Shown here one piece after another: positions 1-64,000 of a stretch of DNA of 64,000 nucleotides (position 1 is the stretch's first letter; every line of letters begins with the position of its first letter). Origin of the DNA: a virus. Where the stretch lies: IMG/VR virus record IMGVR_UViG_3300009165_000006, one strand, 5' to 3'. Under the pieces are notes generated by a model. That model had not been told where the DNA came from and searched no databases. It worked only from the letters and a program-made list of their open reading frames with translations. A program made the translations under genes and the position numbers.

Positions 1-1572
1 AAGATCAACTTCAGGAAGGGCAGGATTCGACGGTCTTACACAGCTCTCTATGCGAAGAGGGACTCTCGTAGGGTTAGGCAAGGTAAGCTAGCTCTACCCT
101 CTTACCGTCATCACATGATGCGATTGAACAGTAATGCCGAGAGTGCCATCCTGGCAGTGATTTTCTTCGGTAAGGATTGGGTAGTGTTCGATCTTCGGGG
201 TCTACTTCGAAACGTTCGATGGCGTAACTTGTTTGTTGATGGGTCAACCCCCAGCACCTTGCTCGGCATGTTCGGGGATCCAGTGATTGACCCCAAGCGT
301 GGAGTTGTGGCCTTCTGCTACAAGGAGCAGATAGTCCCAGTTGTTTCGAAGTCGATCACGAAGATGGTCAAAGCACCGGAGTTATTGAACAAGCTCTACC
401 TAAAAAGTGAGGATCCCTTAGTTCTAGTGGCTATAGATCTAGGTCAAACTAACCCTGTGGGGGTTGGAGTCTATCGAGTGATGAATGCTAGCCTCGACTA
501 TGAGGTTGTTACTCGGTTCGCCTTGGAGTCGGAACTACTCCGTGAAATTGAGTCCTACCGACAGAGAACGAATGCATTCGAGGCTCAGATCAGAGCTGAG
601 ACTTTTGATGCAATGACTTCAGAAGAACAAGAGGAGATTACCCGGGTTAGGGCGTTCTCAGCATCGAAGGCGAAGGAGAATGTGTGCCATCGATTCGGAA
701 TGCCTGTTGATGCCGTGGATTGGGCTACAATGGGATCAAATACCATTCACATAGCCAAATGGGTGATGCGTCACGGTGACCCAAGTTTAGTTGAGGTGCT
801 CGAGTACAGAAAAGACAACGAGATCAAGCTAGATAAGAATGGGGTACCCAAGAAAGTCAAGTTGACGGACAAGAGGATTGCCAACCTGACCAGTATTAGA
901 TTGAGGTTCTCCCAAGAGACCAGCAAGCATTACAACGATACGATGTGGGAGCTGAGACGTAAGCATCCGGTCTACCAGAAGTTGTCCAAGAGCAAGGCAG
1001 ACTTCTCTCGTCGAGTGGTGAACTCCATTATTAGGAGGGTCAATCACCTAGTTCCACGAGCGAGGATTGTATTTATCATCGAGGATCTGAAGAACCTCGG
1101 CAAAGTGTTTCATGGAAGTGGAAAACGCGAGCTCGGTTGGGATTCCTACTTTGAACCAAAGAGTGAAAACCGATGGTTCATCCAGGTGCTTCATAAGGCT
1201 TTCAGCGAGACTGGTAAGCATAAGGGGTACTACATCATAGAGTGTTGGCCAAACTGGACTAGCTGCACATGCCCTAAGTGCAGTTGCTGTGACTCTGAGA
1301 ATCGCCATGGTGAGGTATTCCGGTGCTTAGCCTGCGGATATACTTGCAATACGGATTTTGGTACAGCCCCAGACAACCTAGTCAAAATTGCTACTACAGG
1401 TAAGGGTCTGCCCGGGCCGAAAAAGAGATGCAAAGGGTCCAGTAAGGGGAAAAACCCTAAGATCGCTCGATCGAGCGAAACCGGTGTATCTGTTACCGAA
1501 TCAGGTGCACCAAAGGTCAAAAAGAGTAGCCCAACTCAAACGAGTCAGAGCTCCTCGCAATCTGCGCCCTAA
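1..1572 (+). CDS. Cas12/TnpB-family RuvC nuclease, candidate type V CRISPR effector (5' end lies outside window)
   Basis: Frame is open from nt 1 (no stop before the first ATG at 115), so >=523 aa. RuvC-I VLVAIDLG (D at nt 436-438), RuvC-II IVFIIEDLKNL (E at 1081-1083), CPKC...CLAC zinc finger, RuvC-III-like CNTDFGTAPDNLVKIA (D at 1354-1356). About 215-aa helical insertion between RuvC-I and RuvC-II. Lys-rich C-terminal tail. CRISPR array starts 33 nt downstream. Confidence 0.75.
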   Translation, partial: KINFRKGRIRRSYTALYAKRDSRRVRQGKLALPSYRHHMMRLNSNAESAILAVIFFGKDWVVFDLRGLLRNVRWRNLFVDGSTPSTLLGMFGDPVIDPKRGVVAFCYKEQIVPVVSKSITKMVKAPELLNKLYLKSEDPLVLVAIDLGQTNPVGVGVYRVMNASLDYEVVTRFALESELLREIESYRQRTNAFEAQIRAETFDAMTSEEQEEITRVRAFSASKAKENVCHRFGMPVDAVDWATMGSNTIHIAKWVMRHGDPSLVEVLEYRKDNEIKLDKNGVPKKVKLTDKRIANLTSIRLRFSQETSKHYNDTMWELRRKHPVYQKLSKSKADFSRRVVNSIIRRVNHLVPRARIVFIIEDLKNLGKVFHGSGKRELGWDSYFEPKSENRWFIQVLHKAFSETGKHKGYYIIECWPNWTSCTCPKCSCCDSENRHGEVFRCLACGYTCNTDFGTAPDNLVKIATTGKGLPGPKKRCKGSSKGKNPKIARSSETGVSVTESGAPKVKKSSPTQTSQSSSQSAP

Positions 1573-1604
1573 GTCACCTAGATCATTGATAACTCCAGGA
1601 GCTA

Positions 1605-1936
1605 GGATCCAATCCTTTTTGATTGCCCAATTCGTTGGGACTACCCCAAAAAGATCCACGAGGCCCGAGTGATCGACGGATCCAATCCTTTTTGATTGCC
1701 CAATTCGTTGGGACGATGACACTCTGGGTTCCCCAAGCCGGCCACGTTTTCCAAGGATCCAATCCTTTTTGATTGCCCAATTCGTTGGGACTAGGCACCT
1801 TCGGAGAGGTTCGACTGGGCAGCCTTGGATCCAATCCTTTTTGATTGCCCAATTCGTTGGGACATATCGCTTTGTCGGACGCTGAGTTCGAGATGATTAG
1901 GGATCCAACCCTTTTGATTGCCCAATTCGTTGGGAC
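1605..1936 (+). CRISPR. CRISPR array: 5 repeats (4 x 37 nt GGATCCAATCCTTTTTGATTGCCCAATTCGTTGGGAC plus a degenerate 36-nt terminal copy), 4 spacers (36, 40, 35, 37 nt)
   Basis: Repeats at 1605-1641, 1678-1714, 1755-1791, 1827-1863, 1901-1936. The first four are identical; the last has T->C and one fewer T. Spacers are unique and 35-40 nt. The 3' half of the repeat forms a CCCAA/UUCG/UUGGG hairpin. The degenerate repeat is distal to the nuclease gene, so transcription probably runs left to right. Confidence 0.9.
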
Positions 1937-2452
1937 CAGTCTTATTCCTCCTACGAGCATTACACGGTCCTCGAGAACGTGGCCCTCGGTCTGAGGTACC
2001 GAGGGATCCCAAAGAAAGAACGAGAAGCCAAAGCCATGGAGATGATCGTCAAGGTCGGTCTCGAGGGGCATGAGCACAAGTTCGCCAAGTACCCGGACCT
2101 CTCAGGCGGGCAACTCCAACGTGTAGCCATTGCTCGAAGCATCGCCTACGACAGCCGGATCCTCCTAATGGACGAACCCTTTGGAGCCCTTGACCTCGAG
2201 ACTCGTAGCCAGATGCAGGAGATGATCGCTCAATTGTGGTTGAGCATCACCCCTACCATCATCATGGTGACCCATGACATTTCGGAGGCGGTCTACTTGG
2301 GTGATACCATCTATGTGATGGGTAGAAACCCTGGAAACCTCAAGAGGAGTTTCATCTCGCCTTTGCCTCTTGAGCGGAACAAAAGTATGAAACGTAGCCC
2401 TGAATTCACTCGAACTGTTCAAGATATCGAAGACTACATGTCCTCGATATGA
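1937..2452 (+). pseudogene. 5'-truncated ABC transporter ATP-binding protein fragment (NitT/TauT-like: LSGGQ signature, Walker B ILLMDEPFGALD, H-loop VTHD); no Walker A
   Basis: The frame of ORF 1979-2452 is open back to 1937, immediately after the last CRISPR repeat (EHYTVLENVALGL...). N-terminal Walker A and Q-loop are absent. Confidence 0.8.
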
Positions 2453-2464
2453 CTCTTTGCTCAC
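2402..2464. repeat. copy A of a diverged direct repeat (3' end of the ABC-ATPase gene)
   Basis: gaattcactcgaactgttcaagatatcgaagactacatgtcctcgatatgactctttgctcac; about 80% identical to 3212-3274. Confidence 0.7.
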
Positions 2465-2484
2465 CGAGGAAACGGCAAGACGAT

Positions 2485-3015
2485 TCAGACTTTCCTTCTC
2501 AAGTATTCAATTCGCTCTTGCGTTTTTTGGAGCTCTTCAGGTGAGTACATGTCGAGGTTGACTCTGAGATTGGTTTCGAGAGCTTCCAACTCTCTGCGAG
2601 CCTGGTATTTGGCTTCCGCGGCACGACTTCTGGGTTTAATCAGATACTGGATTTTCCCTTTTAGCTTACGCTTAGCTACGATAGTACCGATAGGGGTTTC
2701 GGTACCAATAGGGATAGATCTAAGAGTAAACGTGGGTCCGAAGTCACTATCGAAACCATGTCCCTCGATTTTGGCGTTTTCCTCTTGGATGAAGCATCCA
2801 TCTTTCCAAGGTTTGTCTGCCTCATCCTTTGGGATCCGCTCTGGTTTGCCAGGTCTACCGCTCTTTGAGAAGTACTGAACCTCTACGGTAGAGTCCAGGT
2901 AGCGCTGTTTAACCTTTTGCGCTTCAGCGTGTTTGTAATCCGACTCCCACTGCTGGTAAACCTTTTTGAGGTTTACCGGGCCTTTTTGGAGTGGACCGGC
3001 TTCGATGGAGATCAA
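2485..3015 (-). CDS. hypothetical protein (176 aa), lies between the direct-repeat copies
   Basis: ORF track; no recognisable motif. Confidence 0.4.
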   Translation of the reverse strand: MISIEAGPLQKGPVNLKKVYQQWESDYKHAEAQKVKQRYLDSTVEVQYFSKSGRPGKPERIPKDEADKPWKDGCFIQEENAKIEGHGFDSDFGPTFTLRSIPIGTETPIGTIVAKRKLKGKIQYLIKPRSRAAEAKYQARRELEALETNLRVNLDMYSPEELQKTQERIEYLRRKV

Positions 3016-3211
3016 TCTTTGGATGCTTCCTGGGGCACCCTGTCCGAACTTCCCGTTATCATCAAACTCTGTATTCTCTAACTCCTATGAAAGTGGTCCA
3101 GTACTCACCTTGAGATGGGAGTGACTTAGCCTTGTCGACCAGAGCTTGGATAACTTCGCTTTTCACCTCCTAGTTGTAGTATAAGAACAAAAACTAGGTA
3201 CGTTCAAGGGC

Positions 3212-3274
3212 GAATTCACTCAAACTGTTCAAACCATCGAGGACTATGTGTCCTCGATGTAGTCCTTTGTTCAC
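3212..3274. repeat. copy B of the diverged direct repeat (non-coding remnant of the ABC-ATPase 3' end)
   Basis: gaattcactcaaactgttcaaaccatcgaggactatgtgtcctcgatgtagtcctttgttcac. Together with copy A it flanks minus-strand ORF 2485-3015. Confidence 0.7.
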
Positions 3275-3360
3275 ACATCGGAACGTTATCGAGAGCCACA
3301 GATCTTCAATCCAACTTTCAGTATGCCCCTTAGGCAAATTCTACTTATAATTGTTTCCGT

Positions 3361-4029
3361 TTGTCCTACTTAGAGGGACGGACACACTATAAGTCTAGAA
3401 AGGAAAGTATGGGACTAGCTCATTTGAACATTTGGGTCCGGAATCGAAACTGTGACCTACTAACCGATATGTGGCGTACTGATTTGGTCATTCAAGCCTG
3501 TACCGGCACGTACCTGGTTGACATTTGGCCGGAGATCTTAAGCCAATTGCAGACTCGGTATCCTACTTACACGATACTGAGTCACTTCTACCAAGGGGCT
3601 CAACGGATCATGATGATGCCGCCGTCAGGGACCTTCTTCAATCACATTGAGGTTGATATCCCTCCTGGCTGTTACAAGGTGTGGACTCGTTGCTGTCACG
3701 GACAGAACGAGGAGACCTCAGTTCAGTTGATCTCTCCACGATGCGGGGAGGAAGCTTGCGTGAATCTGTTGCTGCCGTCTCTCAAGGTATGTGCCCAACA
3801 GATTGTGCACCCGCTCATCGACCATATCGCTGTTCAGGGGGCCTTCCCGGCGGTGGCTGATAGGCTCGTCATTCTGAAAGGGGTGATGTACGCAGGGGAC
3901 ATTGGTCGAGCCCTTTTGCTTGAGCAGTTGCAGTACCGCTTGTCTGAGGCTGTGGCGAAGGGAGACACGGCTCTGCAGGCTCGTGTCAATGCCGTGATAG
4001 CTCTTGCCGATCAGCTTCCAGCTTGCTGA
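3361..4029 (+). CDS. hypothetical protein (222 aa)
   Basis: ORF track; no motif recognised. Confidence 0.35.
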   Translation: MSYLEGRTHYKSRKESMGLAHLNIWVRNRNCDLLTDMWRTDLVIQACTGTYLVDIWPEILSQLQTRYPTYTILSHFYQGAQRIMMMPPSGTFFNHIEVDIPPGCYKVWTRCCHGQNEETSVQLISPRCGEEACVNLLLPSLKVCAQQIVHPLIDHIAVQGAFPAVADRLVILKGVMYAGDIGRALLLEQLQYRLSEAVAKGDTALQARVNAVIALADQLPAC

Positions 4030-4281
4030 TAGTTTGCATCGGAATGTTGAAGGGGTCCCTCTGAGTGGGGTCCCCTTCGCATTTAACACGCTGGCTGTAC
4101 AGTGGTTCGGGACGATATCTCGGGGACTGCGAAGGAGCTACGGGAGTCAGCGGCATCATCTTTGAGCGAGTAGCCTCGATCTCGATCTCGACTGGTCATT
4201 GACTTTACCAGGTCAGAGAAAGCGTGCTACGGTGCGAAGACGTCAAGGGCCGAATATCCTGAACTCACCCTGTAAAACATC

Positions 4282-4569
4282 ATGATCGAAGTACATATTG
4301 ACTTAAACTTATTCGAGATCACTCGAACAGAGGGGGTTCCAGACAACCCTCACGAAAATATCTACTTGGAATTGATCTCTATCCTCTGGAGTGTCAAGGA
4401 ACAAGCTTCAAACTCCTTGGTACTTTTAGCCCTCGGCTCTTACCTGACTCAGAAGTACCCATCAATCCCATGGAAGGTCGTAGCCTTCGTTGACAATGTT
4501 GAGGTGAGTCGACTCGAGTTCCAAAGCTTGGATGAGAGTGCTCCAATCTCCCGCCTAAGATCCGGTTAG
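4282..4569 (+). CDS. hypothetical protein (95 aa)
   Basis: ORF track; followed by a hairpin at 4571-4598. Confidence 0.3.
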   Translation: MIEVHIDLNLFEITRTEGVPDNPHENIYLELISILWSVKEQASNSLVLLALGSYLTQKYPSIPWKVVAFVDNVEVSRLEFQSLDESAPISRLRSG

Positions 4570-4599
4570 GTCTAAACAGATCGGTGTATTTAGACCACT

Positions 4600-5082
4600 A
4601 TGCCAGAAAGTACCATTCCAACTCTCGCAGTACTCGAAGTTGTGGGTTTTGACCAATTCCGTGAGGTAGTAGCCGTCAAGGAATCAGGTTCAAATCGAGT
4701 AAAGTACCTCACCGCTGTGAGTGGTTCTCAGAAGTCATTCGTCGATGTTAGGACTAAGAATGGTCAGATCTTTCGACTTCCAGTAGATCAAGATAGCTAT
4801 GAAGCTATCTGCGAGGATACAATGTCCAACAAAGGTAGTCGTCAAATCAAGAACGTATCTGGGCACCCGCTTCCTAGCTCCTATGCGCGAGATCGAGCTA
4901 AGGAGTATCAAGAGAGGTATGGGTCTCTTGATTCTATCGACTTCAAACGAGCGTGGGCTGAGGCTCAGATGCTCGACTCCACACTACCCCCGAACCCTCC
5001 CAAATATGTCCCTGAGGAAGCTCAGAAGGCCATCACTCTACTGGCTCGGAGAATTCTCAAACTCGAATCGGAGTGGTCATGA
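4600..5082 (+). CDS. hypothetical protein (160 aa)
   Basis: ORF track. Confidence 0.4.
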   Translation: MPESTIPTLAVLEVVGFDQFREVVAVKESGSNRVKYLTAVSGSQKSFVDVRTKNGQIFRLPVDQDSYEAICEDTMSNKGSRQIKNVSGHPLPSSYARDRAKEYQERYGSLDSIDFKRAWAEAQMLDSTLPPNPPKYVPEEAQKAITLLARRILKLESEWS

Positions 5083-5127
5083 TAGAGACTGCGTGTACTT
5101 GAATGCCAAGTTTGGCCCAGGAAATTC

Positions 5128-5553
5128 ATGCTCCTCTCAAGCCCCCAACGTTTGACTTGGATTTACCTCGTGTTCCAGGATACTCCACCAACATGTGGGG
5201 AGTACGTCGACCCAAAGGGAATCCACTGGCATGTTCGAAACGTGATCCGGGAGCCTGGAGTTGTCCTGCGAGAACCAGCCCCACCGGCATGGTATGTCGA
5301 GATAGCTGCGGACCACCCAGCTTACCAGCTCGAACCCGGATGGGAGCTCCGAAGGTTCTTTAGGCCCGACGAGATTGCTCTTCACCGAGAGCACCTGACG
5401 AACAGCATTCGAAGGATGAGGATCCCAGGATTCGAGTTCGTTGGAGTCTCAGAGGATGAACTCACTCTCGTGGCCAACTTTCAAGGAGTCACTAAGGCTT
5501 CAGGAGTCCCTGATGAGATCGATGGAATGCCGGTTACCATCAATTTCAGGTGA
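5128..5553 (+). CDS. hypothetical protein (141 aa)
   Basis: ORF track. Confidence 0.35.
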   Translation: MLLSSPQRLTWIYLVFQDTPPTCGEYVDPKGIHWHVRNVIREPGVVLREPAPPAWYVEIAADHPAYQLEPGWELRRFFRPDEIALHREHLTNSIRRMRIPGFEFVGVSEDELTLVANFQGVTKASGVPDEIDGMPVTINFR

Positions 5554-5557
5554 AATC

Positions 5558-5797
5558 ATGAGCTGCAAGTACGAGATAACCATCCTACACCCCAAGTATC
5601 GTGATGATGTAATGGTGTGGAACACAGTATTTAGGTCCGATACATTAACATTGACTGTTCTCAAGCGAAAGATTGATATTGCTCATGAGCTTGGTTTACC
5701 GACGACTGCAGCATATAGTAAAGGTAGTCTAGGTACTGGGAAAATCGTTGAGATGTTTGGTGAGCCTCAGTTCTTCGAGGTGGTAAAGGTTTCCTAG
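5558..5797 (+). CDS. hypothetical protein (79 aa; MSCKYEITILHPKYRDD...)
   Basis: ATG 4 nt after the stop of the upstream ORF; C-terminal part of track ORF 5441-5797. Confidence 0.3.
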   Translation: MSCKYEITILHPKYRDDVMVWNTVFRSDTLTLTVLKRKIDIAHELGLPTTAAYSKGSLGTGKIVEMFGEPQFFEVVKVS

Positions 5798-5825
5798 GTT
5801 ATACAAGCGTCCGGATCTGTCAGCT

Positions 5826-6221
5826 CTACGGTAATACGCTCTGGGGGACTTTAGAGGTATCGTTACGCACCTCCCAGGATACCTCTCCCTCGTCTAACCA
5901 CTTGTAGAAGACCTGGCCTCTTCCGACTTGGTTTCGAACAAGATTTGGCTCACCAAGGTGCACCAAGGCCAAGCAATCATCGGGTACCCCTCTGGACATA
6001 TAGATCTTGGCTCCACGGAAGGTTCCCATGAATCCGATCTTCAGCGAAGCAGGATTCGATTCGGACTCAATCGTGTAGATGTCTCTTCCCCATTTGCGGA
6101 TGTCAGCATATGTACAAGGAGACACCCAGACGTATTCAATCTCAGGAGTTAGCATTCCTCCGAGGATATCAGGAGTTAGCACGTAGGCTCGTTTGACTTC
6201 TTCTCTTTCGATGATGACCAT
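5826..6221 (-). CDS. hypothetical protein (131 aa)
   Basis: ORF track. Confidence 0.35.
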   Translation of the reverse strand: MVIIEREEVKRAYVLTPDILGGMLTPEIEYVWVSPCTYADIRKWGRDIYTIESESNPASLKIGFMGTFRGAKIYMSRGVPDDCLALVHLGEPNLVRNQVGRGQVFYKWLDEGEVSWEVRNDTSKVPQSVLP

Positions 6222-6870: not shown

Positions 6871-7297
6871 GAACTTGCTGTTTCCTAGTCATTCAAGTAC
6901 ATTCCGGGGCATGCCAGAATTCAGTGCCGGAGATATTGTTCGAGTAGTCCGTCAGCCAGAGCACCTGATTGTTCAGGTCGTGGGTAAAGTCGGGTTCCTT
7001 ACTAGCTTGACCGCAACCCATGCTGAGTTTACAGGTTTGAATTTAGATGGGTCCTACTCAGGGGGCATTACAACCCAACTTGATTGCCTGGAGCCTGAGA
7101 CCTCCCCTCAGTGGGTTGAAGCCAAAAGGCTTCGAGATGAGGCTTTCAAAAAGACCATAGCCGAGAGTATAGCTCGTGCTGAAAGATACAATGCCAGGAT
7201 GTTCGAACTGTCGGTCAAGTACGGAATCTCGGTGGAGCATGTGAAGGCATTGTTTTCTGACCTAACGTACCTCAATCGTCAGGGTTGGTGGCCGTAA
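6833..7297 (+). CDS. hypothetical protein (154 aa)
   Basis: ORF track. Confidence 0.35.
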   Translation: MLNNPWHQRAYTKNLLFPSHSSTFRGMPEFSAGDIVRVVRQPEHLIVQVVGKVGFLTSLTATHAEFTGLNLDGSYSGGITTQLDCLEPETSPQWVEAKRLRDEAFKKTIAESIARAERYNARMFELSVKYGISVEHVKALFSDLTYLNRQGWWP

Positions 7298-10933: not shown

Positions 10934-11448
10934 GTAACAGACCACCCGCGCTCGAGCGATCGTAGAACCCGGCGAACAGCCCGATCGGCTCCGACAAATT
11001 GGTCCGATCGGAACTTGAGGTTCGGGTGAAGTTCGTGCTCTGAGGTGAAGAACGGATTGCTCGCCCCATCCTGGAAGTACTCAGCGAACCACTCGGTGGT
11101 ATAGCTGTAAGAAAGGGTGGCTCGGTAAGGTGGTATCGAGTATTCCCATGTGTTGTCGGGCTTCAAGTCCCGGGCGATGGCCTTCGGTCTCATGGATCCT
11201 CAACAACCCAAGCTAGAATCTCAGAGGCTGAGATGAAAGAAAATAGTTGACTCTCTGTCTCTAGCAGAACTTTTGGCTTTCCAGTAGAGGCTACTGAACA
11301 GAAACCTAGGGTGTAGACGTCCCATAGGGTACCTAGTTTGCTGATCGTGCCACAGTATGTTCTACAGTGACATTCGCTCTCTTTCCCTTGGACATTAACT
11401 AACGTTGCCATGTGTTGCCCTGACTTCGATGGTTTTGTCTCACTTAGC

Positions 11449-21561: not shown

Positions 21562-22451
21562 TGAACCAAGGTTCGCTCGAAGGCCTCGTTGTTGAGCACA
21601 ATCATGATGGAGGGTGGATCCGGAGCGTTCGCTTGACGAGTTGACTCATCGTACTCGTGGCAACCCCACTCACCCTTCTCCATGTAAGGTTGAACTCTTA
21701 CCCATGTTCCGATACTTGGATCAATGGCTGCAGCAGCCGCTATTGTGTCGTGAAGGGCCTTCCCCTCTGGGCGCTTTTTGAAGTAAAAAGCCATCCCTTC
21801 CTTGATGAGGTCAAGCCCAGCATGGGCTCCGGAAGGGATTCTCTCATTGACCATAGGACCCCAGAAGACACCGTGACAAACGTTCTTGGAAACCATCCGT
21901 CGAGTCCAGATAGGTGAGTTTTTACCCAGTAAACCGAGGGCTGCTTTCGAGTCGCCCCCAAGGTTGAAGGTCGGACAGGTGAGCTTGCCGGCGAACTTGG
22001 GTAGCCGGTGTTCGGGTGGGACGATGTTGTCTCCGGCGAAGCCACCCTGGCAAGTCCACGTACGGAAAAACGGCCACACCTCACTGCTAGCCTTCCAGAT
22101 GTTGGTGAGGGCCGCTCCAGTGATTAGGTGGGTGGTTGGAAAGTCCAGTAGTACCTGCTTAATGACCTCAGTGGCGCTTCCCTGGGGCTGACAGGGGGAG
22201 ATCTTCCCAAGCCAATCATAGTGGAACTGGGACACCTTAGAAGTTTGCTTCTTGAGGCTCCCAATTCCGATAGGCACGTCCGTCCGCCCAAGACGATCGA
22301 GGACATGACGAACTATCCCGACCTGGTCGAAACCTCCTGGATGGATCGTAGCCCCAACGAGTTTGGCTCGGGGATGAGTAGCAAGGAGCGCTAGAGTGAA
22401 CACGTCATCTGGGTCACTCGTTTCCATGTCGAACAGATATTCTTGAGTCAC
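21558..22451 (-). CDS. nucleoside hydrolase-like protein (IU-NH/RihA fold candidate)
   Basis: N-terminal DMETSDPDDVFTLALL resembles the DxDxxxDD aspartate cluster of nucleoside hydrolases. GTG start. Divergent from the ADP-ribosylglycohydrolase gene. Confidence 0.4.
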   Translation of the reverse strand: MTQEYLFDMETSDPDDVFTLALLATHPRAKLVGATIHPGGFDQVGIVRHVLDRLGRTDVPIGIGSLKKQTSKVSQFHYDWLGKISPCQPQGSATEVIKQVLLDFPTTHLITGAALTNIWKASSEVWPFFRTWTCQGGFAGDNIVPPEHRLPKFAGKLTCPTFNLGGDSKAALGLLGKNSPIWTRRMVSKNVCHGVFWGPMVNERIPSGAHAGLDLIKEGMAFYFKKRPEGKALHDTIAAAAAIDPSIGTWVRVQPYMEKGEWGCHEYDESTRQANAPDPPSIMIVLNNEAFERTLVH

Positions 22452-22514
22452 TTGAAATCAATCTCAGGTTATAGGAGTGGCTGCCACCTAAATTTCGATG
22501 GTGTATCAGCTACC

Positions 22515-23456
22515 ATGCCCTCTTCGTTGAGTAAAGCCCAAGCTTGTCTGCTGTGTCATGTGGTCGGAGACTCCCTTGGGAGCCTCGTAGAGTTCGAGTC
22601 CGAGGAGACCATCCTTCAGGAGCACCAAGGAGAAAAAGTGCGCTACCTCGCTGATGGGGGCACCTGGGAGACCTTGGCGGGGCAAGGCACAGACGATTCC
22701 GAAATGGCCATCACCCTAGCTAGGACTCTCATTCACCATGGTTTTTACAGCTCAACCATTATGCGGAGTATGTATTGCTATTGGCTCAATAGCCAACCAT
22801 TTGACGTTGGCAGGACCACTCAAAATGGACTCCTGGATATGCCTGACTTCCACAGCCAAGCCAATGGGGCTTTGATGCGTGTCGCCCCCTTGGGGATCTT
22901 TGGAGCGAAGAAGAAGGACTGGAGAAAGACCATGATCTGGGCGATGGAGGATGCCCTTATTACGCACCCAAATCAAATATGCTTACAAATCAATGCACTT
23001 TATGTATCGATGATCGATCAAGCAATCGGAAGTGATGCAAGCCCAGATCAACTCTACGGTGCGCTGGCCGCAACAGCAGTGGATATGGAAGCCCATCCAG
23101 TTATCCTCGAAGCTATCGACCGAGCTAGAACTGCCCCACCGGAAAACTACATGGTGAATATGGGTTGGGTTGTCCTCGCTTTCCAGAATGCGCTCTATCA
23201 ACTACTACACGCCCCGTCATTGACTGAAGGAATTGTCGATACCGTCAATCGCGGAGGTGATACCGATACCAACGGAGCAATTGCCGGTGCTCTGCTTGGG
23301 GCTGTTTACGGGATGGAGCAAGTCCCCAAGGATTGGATCGATGGAGTAACCCAATGTTGCCCATCGGTGACCAACCCCTACTCTAGAAAGCCACGTACAG
23401 GCTTCTTTTGGACTAATGATGTGCTAGAAGTAGCCAAAAAACTACTTGATAGTTGA
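22515..23456 (+). CDS. ADP-ribosylglycohydrolase (DraG/ARH family)
   Basis: GDSLG, GQGTDDSEM, GALMRVAPLG and GGDTDTNGAIAGALLGA motifs. In-frame ATG within track ORF 22443-23456. Confidence 0.8.
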   Translation: MPSSLSKAQACLLCHVVGDSLGSLVEFESEETILQEHQGEKVRYLADGGTWETLAGQGTDDSEMAITLARTLIHHGFYSSTIMRSMYCYWLNSQPFDVGRTTQNGLLDMPDFHSQANGALMRVAPLGIFGAKKKDWRKTMIWAMEDALITHPNQICLQINALYVSMIDQAIGSDASPDQLYGALAATAVDMEAHPVILEAIDRARTAPPENYMVNMGWVVLAFQNALYQLLHAPSLTEGIVDTVNRGGDTDTNGAIAGALLGAVYGMEQVPKDWIDGVTQCCPSVTNPYSRKPRTGFFWTNDVLEVAKKLLDS

Positions 23457-45398: not shown

Positions 45399-46643
45399 TC
45401 ATAGGAGAACTCCGATGTTCACTTCCTGCTTCAACGAGACATGACTCGTAGGCCGAAGGGTTCTCCTTCGTTCCGCCGCTAGAGGACTCTCCACAGGCTT
45501 TTTAGCGCCGAAGGCGCCTAGGTTCCTCGGGAACTCCGAGTACCTTTCCAAATTCTTCGCCGCATTCTCATCTCGATCATGAATAGCTCCACATCCTTCA
45601 CAAACCCACTCTCTCACAGAAAGAGCCAGCTGCGGCCGTTTAAGGCCGCAGCTGGTACATATCTTCGAGGATGGGAACCATCGATCAGCTACTTCTAGCT
45701 TAGATCCATACCAAGTGGTCTTGTAGGAAAGTAGCCTCTTACTTTCAAACCACCCTTGGTCCAAGATCGACCGAGAAAGGTGAGGATTCTTACTCATTCC
45801 ACGAATACCAAGGTCTTCCACAACGATGGCTGACTTGGTTTTCGCCAGCCCCGTTGTGAACTTATGAAGGAAATCCCTTCGAACGTTTGCTACTCGTGAG
45901 TGAATCCTCGCTAATCTTTGAGCTGATTTCCTCCTATTTGACGAACCCTTACGCTTCCTCGAATGAGAGCGTTGAGCCCTTCTTAACCGACTTAACGCTT
46001 GTTTCAATGGATTCGGGGCATGTATCTTCGTACAGGCCCCGTCCGAAGAGACCGTAGCGAAAGTAAGAATCCCTAGATCTACCCCAGCTTTTGGTCCTTG
46101 GATAGGAATAGGATCCGTCACGACCTCAACGGTATTGACGGATACGAACCATCGATCTGCTACCCTCGAAATCGTAGCTGAAAGGATCTCCCCACTAATC
46201 CTGCCGTTGATCTTCTCTTTGGTTCGAATAGTCCCAAGCCTAGGGAGCTTAATATACCTAGTTTGTGGCTCAATTGAACCATAGAGACGGAAGGAATCCT
46301 TTGATTTATGCTTCTTTTTGAACTTTGGGAAGCCAACTCCTTCTGATCTTCTGGACCAGAAAGCTTTGAAAGCTTTGTCAAGATCACGAAGAGCTTCCTG
46401 AGGGGCACACTTGGAAACCTCGTACATCCAAGGGAAGTCAGGGCCCTTGCGGGCGTTGAGGTCCCGATGTTCAGCGATGGCGTTGGTGAACTTCTCCTTA
46501 CCTTCTTGGGTTCGGAAGCGTTCGATCCTCCTTTGGAGGGACCAATTCCAAGCGAAGCGAGCCGTTCCGGCATGCTTCGCCAAGAACGTCCGAACCCGAT
46601 TGTTCGGATCTAACTCGAACTTATACGCCTTCCGAAGTTCCAT
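45399..46643 (-). CDS. tnpB: TnpB (IS605 OrfB-family RNA-guided RuvC nuclease)
   Basis: N-terminal MELRKAYKFELDPNNRVRTFLAKHAGTARFAWN (OrfB HTH), RuvC-I KAGVDLGI, RuvC-II AIVVEDLGIRGM, zinc finger CTSCG...CEGCG, RuvC-III IHDRDENAAKNL. 414 aa. Confidence 0.9.
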   Translation of the reverse strand: MELRKAYKFELDPNNRVRTFLAKHAGTARFAWNWSLQRRIERFRTQEGKEKFTNAIAEHRDLNARKGPDFPWMYEVSKCAPQEALRDLDKAFKAFWSRRSEGVGFPKFKKKHKSKDSFRLYGSIEPQTRYIKLPRLGTIRTKEKINGRISGEILSATISRVADRWFVSVNTVEVVTDPIPIQGPKAGVDLGILTFATVSSDGACTKIHAPNPLKQALSRLRRAQRSHSRKRKGSSNRRKSAQRLARIHSRVANVRRDFLHKFTTGLAKTKSAIVVEDLGIRGMSKNPHLSRSILDQGWFESKRLLSYKTTWYGSKLEVADRWFPSSKICTSCGLKRPQLALSVREWVCEGCGAIHDRDENAAKNLERYSEFPRNLGAFGAKKPVESPLAAERRRTLRPTSHVSLKQEVNIGVLL

Positions 46644-58122: not shown

Positions 58123-59478
58123 ATGAAAGTCCCTGAAAGAGTCCGTTTTATCTGCAGTATCTTGAATCAAGCAGGCTTTGAAGCCTGGGTTGTTGGTGGC
58201 GCAGTGCGCGACTCTATACTTGGCCGAGAAGCTCACGACTTCGATGTGGCCACTAATGCTCTCCCTGATAGAGTCGTCAGGCTGTTCAGTCGTGTCATTG
58301 AGACCGGTATCCAACATGGAACGGTCACGGTCATGATTGAAAACGAGGGCTTCGAGGTCACCACCTTCCGTGGTGAAGGTACCTACTCGGATGGGCGCCA
58401 CCCAGATAGTGTCAGGTTCTTGGACTCTATCATCGAGGACTTGGCTCGTCGAGACTTCACAATGAATGCGGTCGCGTACGACCCCTTGACAGGGAAGTTC
58501 TGTGACCCCTTCGGTGGGGTGCAGGATATCGAATGCATGCTCATCCGAGCTGTAGGATCTCCTGAAGAAAGATTCCAAGAAGACGGCTTGAGAGTCATGC
58601 GAGCTATTCGTTTCATGAGTACTCTGGGATTCTCCATTGAACCACGTACTCTCGAAGGTATGGCGAAGATTGATTCCCTAGCCTCCCTAGCCAAGGTCAG
58701 CGTTGAACGGGTCAGGGACGAGCTCTTTAGGATCATGGGCTCGAAAGCACCCTCTCGTTCAATGAATGCCATAGTTCATACCGGAGTCTTGGACGTGATC
58801 CTACTAGAGATGCGCCCGATGGTTGGGTGTACTCAAAATCGGTACCATTCCTACGACGTTTGGACCCACACGATGGTTACTCTCGACCATTGTCCGGATG
58901 ACAACCCTATCCTCAGGTTTGGGGCTCTCTTTCACGATATCGCAAAGCCCGAGGTGAAAGGGGTTCACCCAGTCCATGGGGATGCCACTTTCTACGATCA
59001 TGAGCTGGTGGGGGCAAAGAAGACCGATGAGATCTTGACTCGGTTGAGGTTCTCAACCGAAGATCGGGAGAAGATTGTTCACTTGGTTGAGCACCACTTC
59101 ATCCGGTACGAACACGAGTGGTCGAATTCAGCGCTTCGTCGTTGGGTTCGGAAGGTTGGATTGGAGAGCGTCCCCACTTTCTGCACTCTCGCCCGGGCGG
59201 ACATCGCCGGGAAAGGGCCTATAGCCACAGTTGAATCCGAGAATTCAGTCATTGATGACCTGGAGAATCGGGTATCCAGACTGCAATTGACCGAAGTGAT
59301 CCCAACGTCAATCAAGGTGCTTGCCATCGACGGGAACGACGTGATGGCTCACTTGGGTATAGGACCAGGCCCTAGGATAGGAAGAGTGCTAGAAAGCCTT
59401 CTAGACGCCGTAACGGAGGACCCAGAACTCAACACCCGGGAGAAGCTCTTGGAGCTTGCCAGGGAAGTTCAAGTGTGA
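58123..59478 (+). CDS. cca: CCA-adding tRNA nucleotidyltransferase (class II) with HD domain
   Basis: WVVGGAVRDSILGREAHDFDVAT (GGxVRD...DxD), RDFTMNA, and HD domain HSYDVWTHT...LFHDIAKP. 451 aa. Confidence 0.85.
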   Translation: MKVPERVRFICSILNQAGFEAWVVGGAVRDSILGREAHDFDVATNALPDRVVRLFSRVIETGIQHGTVTVMIENEGFEVTTFRGEGTYSDGRHPDSVRFLDSIIEDLARRDFTMNAVAYDPLTGKFCDPFGGVQDIECMLIRAVGSPEERFQEDGLRVMRAIRFMSTLGFSIEPRTLEGMAKIDSLASLAKVSVERVRDELFRIMGSKAPSRSMNAIVHTGVLDVILLEMRPMVGCTQNRYHSYDVWTHTMVTLDHCPDDNPILRFGALFHDIAKPEVKGVHPVHGDATFYDHELVGAKKTDEILTRLRFSTEDREKIVHLVEHHFIRYEHEWSNSALRRWVRKVGLESVPTFCTLARADIAGKGPIATVESENSVIDDLENRVSRLQLTEVIPTSIKVLAIDGNDVMAHLGIGPGPRIGRVLESLLDAVTEDPELNTREKLLELAREVQV

Positions 59479-63897: not shown

Positions 63898-64000
63898 CGG
63901 TGTAGTTAGGCCCCATGATCAGAGAAACGCTAACTAGCGTGGAAAGGCTCAGAATCCTCACCGGTCCAATGTTCTCCGACAAGACGGAAACGTTGATTCA

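What the first reader, a model, noticed from the sequence alone, without database searches (positions are those of the whole stretch)
1901..2464. CRISPR array abuts a 5'-truncated host-type ABC-ATPase gene
Immediately after the terminal repeat, the frame encodes EHYTVLENVALGL...LSGGQLQRVAIARS...ILLMDEPFGALD...VTHD. This is the C-terminal two thirds of a NitT/TauT-type ABC ATPase lacking Walker A. The nuclease+array module therefore appears to have been inserted into, or recombined next to, a cellular-type gene. This records how the CRISPR module was acquired, or is a remnant of host DNA capture.
Basis: seen in the sequence. Interest (0 to 1): 0.5.

Follow-up and report, generated by a model that had tools for sequence, protein, structure and literature searches.

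The report
Phage CRISPR cassette fused to truncated transporter gene
A phage's Cas12j CRISPR array ends exactly where the last two thirds of the phage's own ABC-transporter ATPase gene begin, and a sibling phage shows this joint is a sharp recombination boundary, so the nuclease-plus-array unit seems to move as a discrete cassette.

Summary
Window 1937-2452 encodes codons 100-270 of a TauB/NitT-TauT-type ABC ATPase. It has the Q-loop Gln, LSGGQ, Walker B and H-loop but no Walker A. It is joined to the last base of the degenerate terminal repeat (1901-1936) of a Cas12j (CasPhi) array.

It is not host DNA. Full-length homologues at 73-95% identity close an SBP-permease-ATPase operon in related huge-phage contigs, while the best cellular hits reach only 63%. 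Relative L144 has the intact gene with the same downstream genes.

No Walker-A part, permease or SBP lies in the window or within 2.95 kb upstream, so this is a truncation, not a frameshift.

Sibling phage L148 has the identical junction. The 2.8-kb cas12j-array cassette is 99.7% identical between the two (dS 0.004). Divergence jumps to about 10% within 6 nt of the junction (relic dS 0.38, dN/dS 0.036; flanking genes dS 0.07-0.19).

In intact alleles the breakpoint is preceded by TTY, a Cas12j-type PAM.

Best reading: the cassette was joined and exchanged here by recombination that uses its own CRISPR sequences. The exact mechanism, the left junction, and whether the truncated ORF still functions remain unresolved.

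The parts
1..1572 (+). 3' 61% of cas12j (CasPhi). The full gene encodes 793 aa and starts 810 nt upstream of the window, at L139:2145.
   Evidence: P0001 is 100% identical and 793 aa long. PDB CasPhi-2 7lys scores E 5e-140. L139 overlaps window 1-1633 at 100%.
1573..1604 (+). 32-nt stretch between the cas12j stop and the first repeat (leader side of the array).
   Evidence: Sequence. Identical in L148.
1605..1936 (+). CRISPR array: repeats at 1605-1641, 1678-1714, 1755-1791, 1827-1863 and 1901-1936, with spacers of 36, 40, 35 and 37 nt.
   Evidence: The 3' hairpin CCCAA-UUCG-UUGGG is shown. The repeat shares the ATTGC...GAC ending with other Cas12j arrays.
1901..1936 (+). Degenerate terminal repeat. 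Its last base is the right end of the 2.8-kb cassette shared at 99.7% with L148.
1937..1972 (+). First 36 nt of the ABC fragment, occupying the position of a spacer. In intact alleles it is preceded by TTY.
   Evidence: 29 of 33 homologues have TTT or TTC there. Only 4.4% of positions in the L144 gene are preceded by TTN.
1937..2452 (+). 5'-truncated ABC ATPase gene, corresponding to codons 100-270 of the 270-aa L144 protein. Open frame with no stop or indel. Possible starts are GTG 1979 (157 aa) and ATG 2036 (138 aa).
2485..3166 (-). Neighbouring gene of unknown function, frameshifted here by a 2-nt deletion near 3085. It is an intact 227-aa ORF in L144 and L148.
3184..3274 (+). Second, older relic of the last ~25 codons of the ABC gene, including the hairpin ATCGAGGAC-TATGT-GTCCTCGAT.
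   Evidence: (D3, 79% identity to 2402-2464). A more decayed trace sits at the same place in L144.

Best explanation
Shown:
- Window 1937-2452 is the 3' 63% of the TauB-like ABC ATPase gene that this clade of huge, Cas12j-carrying phages encodes as the last gene of an SBP-permease-ATPase operon.
- Lacking Walker A, it cannot hydrolyse ATP.
- Its first base is joined to the last base of the terminal CRISPR repeat.
- That joint is a recombination boundary. A cassette runs from 70 nt upstream of the cas12j start to the last base of the terminal repeat (2816 nt). It is 99.7% identical between this phage and sibling L148. The DNA immediately to the right is 8-10% diverged, and the DNA immediately to the left is unrelated.

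Inferred:
- The cassette was joined to the ABC gene, and later exchanged between diverged genomes, by recombination that uses the CRISPR sequences themselves.
- One candidate is crossover between a spacer and its protospacer in the ABC gene. The breakpoint has the TTY PAM on the correct strand.
- The other is crossover within the identical repeats that bracket the cassette.
- Either could be stimulated by Cas12j cutting intact ABC alleles with the guide made from the terminal repeat plus its flank.
- On this reading the ABC fragment is a by-product, not a working transporter part.
For: Identity and origin:
- establish the gene family and its phage-clade origin.
- L144 gives the ancestral state, with 87-90% nt identity and the same downstream genes.

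Position of the breakpoint:
- It falls at the repeat end to within 1 nt.
- In intact alleles the preceding 3 nt are TTT or TTC, the Phe codon of the VFQ motif. Only 4.4% of positions in the gene are preceded by TTN and 18% by TBN.
- Cas12j3 uses a 5'-TTN PAM on the non-target strand and the family uses T-rich PAMs (PMC8298400).
- A rough chance estimate for 'repeat end plus TTN' is about 0.001 (my inference).

Divergence against L148:
- Left of the junction there are 8 differences in 2816 nt, and 0 in the last 432 nt.
- Right of the junction there are 17 differences in the first 164 nt, the first at +6. Fisher p is 1e-10 to 1e-25.
- Synonymous divergence is 0.004 for cas12j, 0.385 for the relic and 0.07-0.19 for six flanking genes.

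State of the relic:
- dN/dS is 0.036-0.05 with no stop or indel. Its variation therefore arose in functional genes or under selection, not by in-place decay.

Repeat copies outside arrays in the clade:
- A solo half-repeat lies 39 nt left of the cassette.
- L145 has two lone repeats.

Precedent:
- Spacer-target recombination that moves CRISPR loci is documented by Varble et al. 2019, as summarised in PMC8616872.
Against: - Only two cassette carriers are available.
- The left junction with the ABC operon was not found, so insertion, replacement and deletion cannot be told apart.
- The two relics already differ at +6. This is awkward both for a crossover inside a shared 36-nt spacer and for repair templated from the other carrier.
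- The PAM of this particular Cas12j is unknown. No protospacer was found for any of its four spacers.
- No intact allele that exactly matches the flank-derived guide was found. Those collections do not hold even L143, which matches the pattern, so this negative is weak.
- The terminal repeat is degenerate, as expected for a true last repeat rather than for one that was once followed by a spacer.
- By parsimony, two sister backbones sharing the same breakpoint suggest one old fusion. That would instead require selection on the truncated ORF.
Confidence: 0.5

Rival explanations
1. One old fusion, and the truncated ORF is a working gene. The fusion happened once in the common ancestor of this phage and L148. 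The 157- or 138-aa Walker-A-less product has since been kept by purifying selection, perhaps as a decoy partner for full-length NBDs. The cassette was later replaced by crossovers in the identical terminal repeat.
For: - Both sister backbones share the identical breakpoint, the loss of the upstream operon and a derived last residue (Ile171).
- The frame is open in both. dN/dS between the two truncated copies is 0.036 (5.5 nonsynonymous against 34.5 synonymous changes; p 7e-17 against neutrality).
- All catalytic motifs apart from Walker A are intact.
- A crossover in the 36-nt identical terminal repeat would explain why differences can start at +6.
Against: - The relic's dS (0.385) is 2-5 times that of the flanking backbone genes. 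This fits imported or independently captured alleles better than divergence in place.
- No function is known for such a fragment.
- No start codon or ribosome-binding evidence was obtained.
- The sharp left boundary of the cassette is not explained.
Confidence: 0.2
2. Ordinary illegitimate recombination. A random deletion or translocation happened to end at the repeat boundary. Later mosaic homologous recombination among co-infecting relatives produced the divergence pattern. The CRISPR sequences played no part.
For: - The locus is a rearrangement hot spot. There is an older second relic of the ABC 3' end and a frameshifted neighbour.
- Downstream genes differ among L143, L144 and the P0163 contig.
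- Backbone identity is mosaic, 89-99%.
Against: - It needs a breakpoint at the last base of a repeat (about 1-2 in 73) and at a TTN-preceded site (4.4%).
- It then needs a second exchange point within 5 nt of the same base and another at the cassette's left end. Homologous exchange has no template to the left of the junction in genomes with an intact gene.
Confidence: 0.18
3. Gene conversion from an intact ABC operon elsewhere in the same genome keeps each relic looking 'purified'.
For: Only about 67 kb of this phage and about 22 kb of L148 were seen, whereas relatives are 200-500 kb. A tandem-duplication product of spacer-protospacer unequal crossing-over would contain both an intact and a truncated copy.
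Against: - No intact ATPase in the 90%-identity cluster carries this phage's private residues (M36, D53, L98, I171). The closest intact allele differs at 9 of 171 residues.
- No ABC parts appear in 64 kb to the right or 2.95 kb to the left.
Confidence: 0.07
4. One reading: a cellular (host) gene fragment captured by, or interrupted in, the phage.
For: The family is cellular in origin. The nearest cellular relatives are Bacteroidota, the likely host phylum.
Against: Phage-clade homologues are at 73-95% against at most 63% for cellular ones. Synteny with phage relative L144 continues for more than 10 kb to the right of the fragment.
Confidence: 0.02

Closest known systems
CRISPR-CasPhi (Cas12j, type V-J) loci of huge 'Biggiephage'-type phages (Al-Shayeb et al. 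2020, PMC7162821; Cas12j3 structure, PMC8298400)
   Same: A single ~750-800-aa effector next to a short array, with no cas1, cas2 or cas4 nearby. The repeat ends in a short hairpin plus GAC. The effector matches CasPhi-2, CasPhi-3 and Cas12j-SF05 at E 1e-128 to 1e-140.
   Different: This orthologue is only about 40% identical to the characterised ones. The published descriptions I read do not mention an array fused to a truncated gene, or cassette-like sharing between diverged genomes. One search found no mention of transporters.
Spacer-protospacer recombination that moves CRISPR-cas loci (Varble et al. 2019, Nat Microbiol, PMC6533911, as summarised in PMC8616872)
   Same: A junction at the repeat/spacer boundary with target-gene sequence following the repeat is the expected product. 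So is a PAM-flanked breakpoint in the intact target.
   Different: That work was experimental, between a bacterial type II/III locus and staphylococcal phages. Here the event is inferred from sequence, between phage genomes, with a type V system. The Varble paper itself was not read.
TnpB/IS200-IS605 omega-RNA arrangement (the ancestors of Cas12), from my own knowledge
   Same: The RNA scaffold lies at the element's right end and the guide is the flanking DNA just outside it. The element-free allele therefore carries the target next to its TAM/PAM. The geometry here matches: repeat end, then flank, with TTY in the intact allele.
   Different: No TnpA and no IS ends are present. The left side of the cassette does not abut the other half of the target. 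No cleavage or homing has been shown.
NitT/TauT-family ABC importers (TauABC, SsuABC)
   Same: The best NCBIfam match of the fragment and of L144 is TauB. The partner SBP matches the SsuA family and the permease matches SaoP/TauC. JGI names the homologues 'NitT/TauT family ATP-binding protein'.
   Different: All scores fall below the curated cut-offs (138 against 357 bits for the fragment), so the substrate is unknown. The SBP carries a C-terminal OmpA-like domain. In this window only the Walker-A-less 3' part remains.

Membership tests
ABC transporter ATPase (PF00005; NitT/TauT-TauB type) | Walker A P-loop (GxxGxGKS/T) | tested here: not met
   The Pfam match starts at profile position 71. 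No motif or N-terminal similarity appears in any frame of the 67 kb examined. L144 has GPSGSGKST.
ABC transporter ATPase (PF00005; NitT/TauT-TauB type) | Q-loop Gln, signature LSGGQ, Walker B hhhhDE, D-loop and H-loop His | tested here: met
   Read from the sequence at 1937-1939, 2099-2113, 2159-2176 and 2273-2275.
ABC transporter ATPase (PF00005; NitT/TauT-TauB type) | Score above the curated family cut-off, for assignment to a specific transporter | tested here: not met
   TauB model NF008421 scores 138 bits for the fragment and 184 bits for intact L144, against a cut-off of 357. Only the general Pfam ABC_tran cut-off is passed (43.5 against 25).
ABC transporter ATPase (PF00005; NitT/TauT-TauB type) | Operon partners (substrate-binding protein and permease) adjacent | tested here: not met
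   Present in relatives L001, L002, L143, L144 and the P0163 contig. Absent from the window, from L139 and from 10 kb upstream in L148.
CRISPR array | Regularly spaced near-identical repeats with unique spacers, next to a cas gene | tested here: met
   Five repeats of 36-37 nt and spacers of 35-40 nt, starting 33 nt after the cas12j stop.
Cas12j / CasPhi | Full-length similarity to solved CasPhi proteins, with the family-invariant acidic and zinc-ribbon Cys residues | tested here: met
   E 5e-140 to 7lys over residues 19-784. D416, E659, E684, D722 and C694/C697/C712/C715 are invariant columns in 26 homologues. I did not map which of these are the RuvC catalytic residues.
Cas12j / CasPhi | T-rich 5' PAM and self-processing of pre-crRNA | not testable with these tools
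   Known for Cas12j1-3 (PMC8298400). No protospacer was found for this array.
Product of spacer-protospacer recombination | Target-gene homology begins at the first base after a repeat | tested here: met
Product of spacer-protospacer recombination | The intact target has the system's PAM at the breakpoint, on the spacer-sense strand | tested here: inconclusive
   TTT in L144 and TTC in L143, and 29 of 33 homologues have TTY. The PAM of this orthologue has not been determined.
Product of spacer-protospacer recombination | A donor array that carries the corresponding spacer followed by a further repeat | tested here: not met
   Only two carriers exist in the data and both have the fused state. 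The repeat was not found in IMG/VR or in the metagenome collection.
Homing / TnpB-like selfish element | Both halves of the target flank the element | tested here: not met
   The left flanks are unrelated ORFs, and they differ between the two carriers.

The most novel reading that the evidence does not exclude
The cas12j-array unit may be a self-propagating cassette. RNA made from the terminal repeat plus the adjoining ABC sequence would guide Cas12j to cut intact ABC ATPase alleles of co-infecting relatives. The cut would fall at the TTY-flanked Q-loop codon. Repair against the cassette-bearing genome would then install the cassette at the same nucleotide. This would be a TnpB-like 'guide = flank' homing strategy retained by a phage CRISPR system. 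It would explain the nucleotide-exact junction, the cassette being 20-50 times younger than its flanks, and the ABC fragment being more diverged than the backbone yet looking purified.
Probability: 0.12. Interest if true: 0.85.

Novelty: new variant of a known kind. Interest (0 to 1): 0.55.

Why it matters
How phage-borne CRISPR systems without Cas1-Cas2 spread and rearrange is poorly understood. This locus offers a nucleotide-resolved natural example. A 2.8-kb cas12j-array cassette has its right end exactly at the last base of a repeat. It sits at a PAM-flanked position of a conserved phage gene, and it is far younger than the DNA around it. If CRISPR sequences, or Cas12j cutting itself, drive this, phage CRISPR modules would be mobile in their own right. 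That would link them functionally to their TnpB ancestors. It would also explain how competing huge phages acquire each other's weapons. If instead the truncated ATPase is under selection, it would be an unusual Walker-A-less ABC fragment with a function. Both alternatives can be tested with a few more genomes and simple biochemistry.

Tried and rejected
Searches that found nothing:
- INPHARED phages with window 1-6000: no match.
- The repeat in IMG/VR and in the metagenome collection: no match. That collection lacks even the JGI contigs known to carry the repeat, so the negative is weak.
- A degenerate pattern for an intact allele encoding F-QSYSSYEHYT: none in either collection. It also missed L143, which fits the pattern, so coverage is incomplete.
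- The first 20 nt of spacers 1, 3 and 4 in IMG/VR, and all spacers against all fetched loci: no protospacers.
- Spacers of the other Cas12j arrays (L140-L142) against the ABC neighbourhoods: nothing.
- Guides following the solo repeats: no complementary sites.

Attempts to reach the left junction:
- All contigs of this phage either break at the array or stop 2.1 kb upstream of cas12j.
- No DNA was available for the 435-kb P0163 contig.

Ideas rejected:
- Frameshifted N-terminus.
- Assembly chimera, given the six other contigs with the same junction.
- The terminal repeat being derived from ABC sequence: only 8 of 36 positions match (my count).
- Microhomology at the junction: 1 nt at most.
- Cas12j lying near the ABC operon in relatives: none within 10 kb in 54 loci.

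Weak lead kept only as a note:
- A 12-nt match to the repeat's 5' end lies 11 nt left of the cassette in L148 (18 of 2000 shuffles reach its score).

Full report
**What is there**

The window opens inside a cas12j gene. Its product is the C-terminal 485 residues of a 793-aa protein, P0001. P0001 matches CasPhi-2, CasPhi-3 and Cas12j-SF05 structures at E 1e-128 to 5e-140.

Thirty-three bases after the stop codon a CRISPR array begins. It has four perfect 37-nt repeats at 1605, 1678, 1755 and 1827 and a fifth, degenerate repeat at 1901-1936.

The frame that opens after the array, 1937-2452, is an ABC ATPase fragment. Pfam ABC_tran matches at E 6e-11, but only over profile positions 71-136 of 137. 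The best NCBIfam model is TauB, over positions 86-212 of 255.

The Q-loop Gln (1937-1939), LSGGQ (2099-2113), Walker B (2159-2176) and H-loop His (2273-2275) are all present. Walker A is not.

No Walker A motif and no similarity to the missing N-terminus, permease or binding protein exists in any frame. The region tested runs from 2954 nt upstream of the window (contig L139, 100% identical over the overlap) to base 64000.

The junction is present in contigs from six other samples, so it is not a chimera.

**Whose gene is it**

It is not the host's. Full-length homologues of 265-271 aa at 73-95% identity lie on IMG/VR contigs of 215-512 kb and on JGI contigs of 292-435 kb. There the gene closes an operon of a 515-aa NMT1/SsuA-like binding protein with an OmpA tail, a 261-286-aa permease and the ATPase.

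The best matches in named bacterial genomes reach 52-63% and come from Saprospiraceae, Sphingobacteriales and other Bacteroidota MAGs. The fragment is therefore a piece of a gene that this phage clade has carried for a long time.

The closest intact relative with DNA available is L144 (Logan SRR30010507). It has the permease, an intact 270-aa ATPase with GPSGSGKST, and then the same genes as the window: a minus-strand 227-aa gene, a plus-strand 206-aa gene and further genes. Nucleotide identity is 87-90% next to the ABC gene and 71-80% further on.

Compared with L144, the window has the cas12j-array unit where the operon's first 2.3 genes should be.

**Where exactly the break is**

Alignment with nine intact genes and with L143 and L144 puts the start of homology at 1937, the CAG of the Q-loop glutamine, give or take one base. 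That is the first base after the repeat, the position a spacer would occupy.

In intact alleles the three bases before it are TTT or TTC, the Phe codon of the conserved VFQ motif. This holds in 29 of 33 homologues.

Cas12j3 recognises a 5'-TTN PAM on the non-target strand, the family uses T-rich PAMs, and Cas12j processes its own pre-crRNA (PMC8298400). So strand and position are those of a type V protospacer.

Only 4.4% of positions in the L144 gene are preceded by TTN, and a given base of a repeat-spacer unit is 1 in 73. This is a post-hoc estimate, but the coincidence is about one in a thousand.

**The sibling phage**

Cluster look-ups led to L148, a 120-kb JGI contig. It has the same four spacers, the same degenerate terminal repeat and the same junction.

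Pairwise alignment shows an abrupt change at the junction:
- From 70 nt upstream of the cas12j start to the last base of the terminal repeat (2816 nt) there are 8 differences. None falls in the last 432 nt.
- The first 164 nt of the ABC fragment have 17 differences, starting at +6.
- Fisher's test gives p = 1.6e-10 for these adjacent stretches and 1e-25 for cassette against relic.

Synonymous divergence is 0.004 for cas12j, 0.385 for the ABC fragment and 0.07-0.19 for six flanking genes on both sides.

To the left, identity ends just as sharply at L139:2075. The next 0.5-1.4 kb are unrelated in the two phages, and then a shared 203-aa gene resumes at 95%.

The nuclease-plus-array unit is thus a discrete 2.8-kb cassette. 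It is 20-50 times younger than the genomes it sits in, and its right end is the last base of the terminal repeat.

**Is the fragment decaying**

It is not visibly decaying.
- Against L144, dN/dS is 0.049, the same as between two intact genes.
- On this phage's own branch there are 24 synonymous and 5 nonsynonymous changes.
- Between the two truncated copies dN/dS is 0.036 (p = 7e-17 against neutrality), with no stops or indels.

Simple descent from one fusion followed by neutral decay is therefore excluded. Three options remain:
- The junction formed more than once in already diverged functional alleles.
- The relic was overwritten from functional alleles.
- The truncated ORF is itself under selection.

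The relic's synonymous divergence is 2-5 times that of the backbone, which favours imported or independently captured alleles. The shared breakpoint, the shared loss of the operon and a shared derived last residue in two sister backbones favour one old fusion. I could not resolve this with two genomes.

No intact allele in the 90%-identity cluster carries this phage's private residues. That argues against conversion from a hidden intact paralogue.

**Most likely mechanism**

I commit to this reading: the cassette was joined to the ABC gene, and has since been exchanged, by recombination that uses its own CRISPR sequences.

A spacer against the conserved Q-loop region of a rival's ABC gene could cross over with its protospacer. 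That gives a repeat-then-gene junction at a PAM-flanked site. Spacer-target recombination is known to mobilise CRISPR loci (Varble et al. 2019, cited through PMC8616872).

Alternatively or additionally, crossovers in the identical repeats would move the cassette without dragging flanks along. Repeat copies outside arrays do exist in this clade:
- A solo 3' half-repeat lies 39 nt left of the cassette.
- Two lone repeats sit in L145 beside an N-terminally truncated cas12j.
- One of those lone repeats is a clean ~29-nt indel relative to L003.

Shown so far: the gene's identity, the exact junction, the PAM-type context, the cassette boundaries and the divergence contrast. Inferred: the involvement of spacer or repeat homology and of Cas12j cutting.

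Points against this reading:
- The two relics already differ at +6.
- The terminal repeat is degenerate.
- The PAM of this orthologue is unknown.
- No donor array carrying the presumed spacer was found.

**Comparison with what is known**

The system is a member of CRISPR-CasPhi. The gene fragment belongs to the NitT/TauT ABC ATPases only as a remnant, because it fails the Walker A and operon criteria.

The arrangement 'scaffold at the element's end, guide equals the flank, PAM in the empty site' works like the TnpB omega-RNA layout. It fails membership, because the other half of the target does not flank the cassette.

**Verdict**

The 'host DNA' reading is wrong.

By itself a truncated gene beside an array is ordinary. 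The nucleotide-exact, PAM-flanked junction that doubles as the boundary of a much younger cassette is not. Interest is 0.55, as a new variant of known kinds (mobile CRISPR modules, spacer-mediated recombination).

Noticed in passing
L139:2015-2035 (about window -939 to -919, outside the window): A solo copy of the 3' 21 nt of the CRISPR repeat (GATTGCCCAATTCGTTGGGAC) lies 109 nt upstream of the cas12j start and 39 nt left of the cassette boundary. A (TTTCC)4 run follows it. L148 lacks this copy. It could be a relic of a left-hand repeat or a site for Cas12j binding or processing in the cas12j leader.
   Followed up: partly
L141:5651-5873: Another Cas12j locus has five copies of only the 3' 20 nt of its repeat, spaced 45-59 nt apart, just upstream of cas12j. 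It also has a normal array downstream. Short-spaced half-repeats upstream of the nuclease gene may be a recurring feature.
   Followed up: no
L145:5245-6759, 6889-6909 and 11123-11143: A related phage has a cas12j lacking the first ~261 codons (61% identical) and no array. It has only two lone repeats, 4.2 kb apart. The second is a clean ~29-nt indel relative to L003, with both flanks conserved, ending 8 nt before an ATG.
   Followed up: partly
window 3184-3274: A second, older relic of the last ~25 codons of the ABC gene (79% identical to 2402-2464, with a 2-nt frame-breaking indel) keeps a perfect 9-bp hairpin. A more decayed trace sits at the same place in L144, so this duplication predates the cassette event.
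   Followed up: partly
window 2485-3166 (-): The gene next to the ABC fragment carries a 2-nt deletion (frameshift near 3085) relative to the intact 227-aa ORF in L144 and L148. The deletion is identical in the other contigs of this phage that span the site (L055, L056, L057).
   Followed up: yes
window 45399-46643 (-); L148:21212-22382 (-): A TnpB/IS605-OrfB-like gene (phrog_506, E 2e-107) lies in the window. A further Cas12f1-like_TNB gene lies in the sibling, at a place where the window has none.
   Followed up: no
window 58123-59478 and 22443-23456: A tRNA nucleotidyltransferase and an ADP-ribosylglycohydrolase are present. No tRNA genes were found in the 64 kb. Five of the ten large ORFs scanned have no PHROG match.
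   Followed up: no
L144:2940-5334 versus L148:1640-4033: A block encoding a 651-654-aa protein and a small neighbour lies downstream of the ABC region in L144 but about 6-8 kb upstream of the cassette in L148. It is absent from the corresponding place in the window, which is further evidence of rearrangement around this locus.
   Followed up: no
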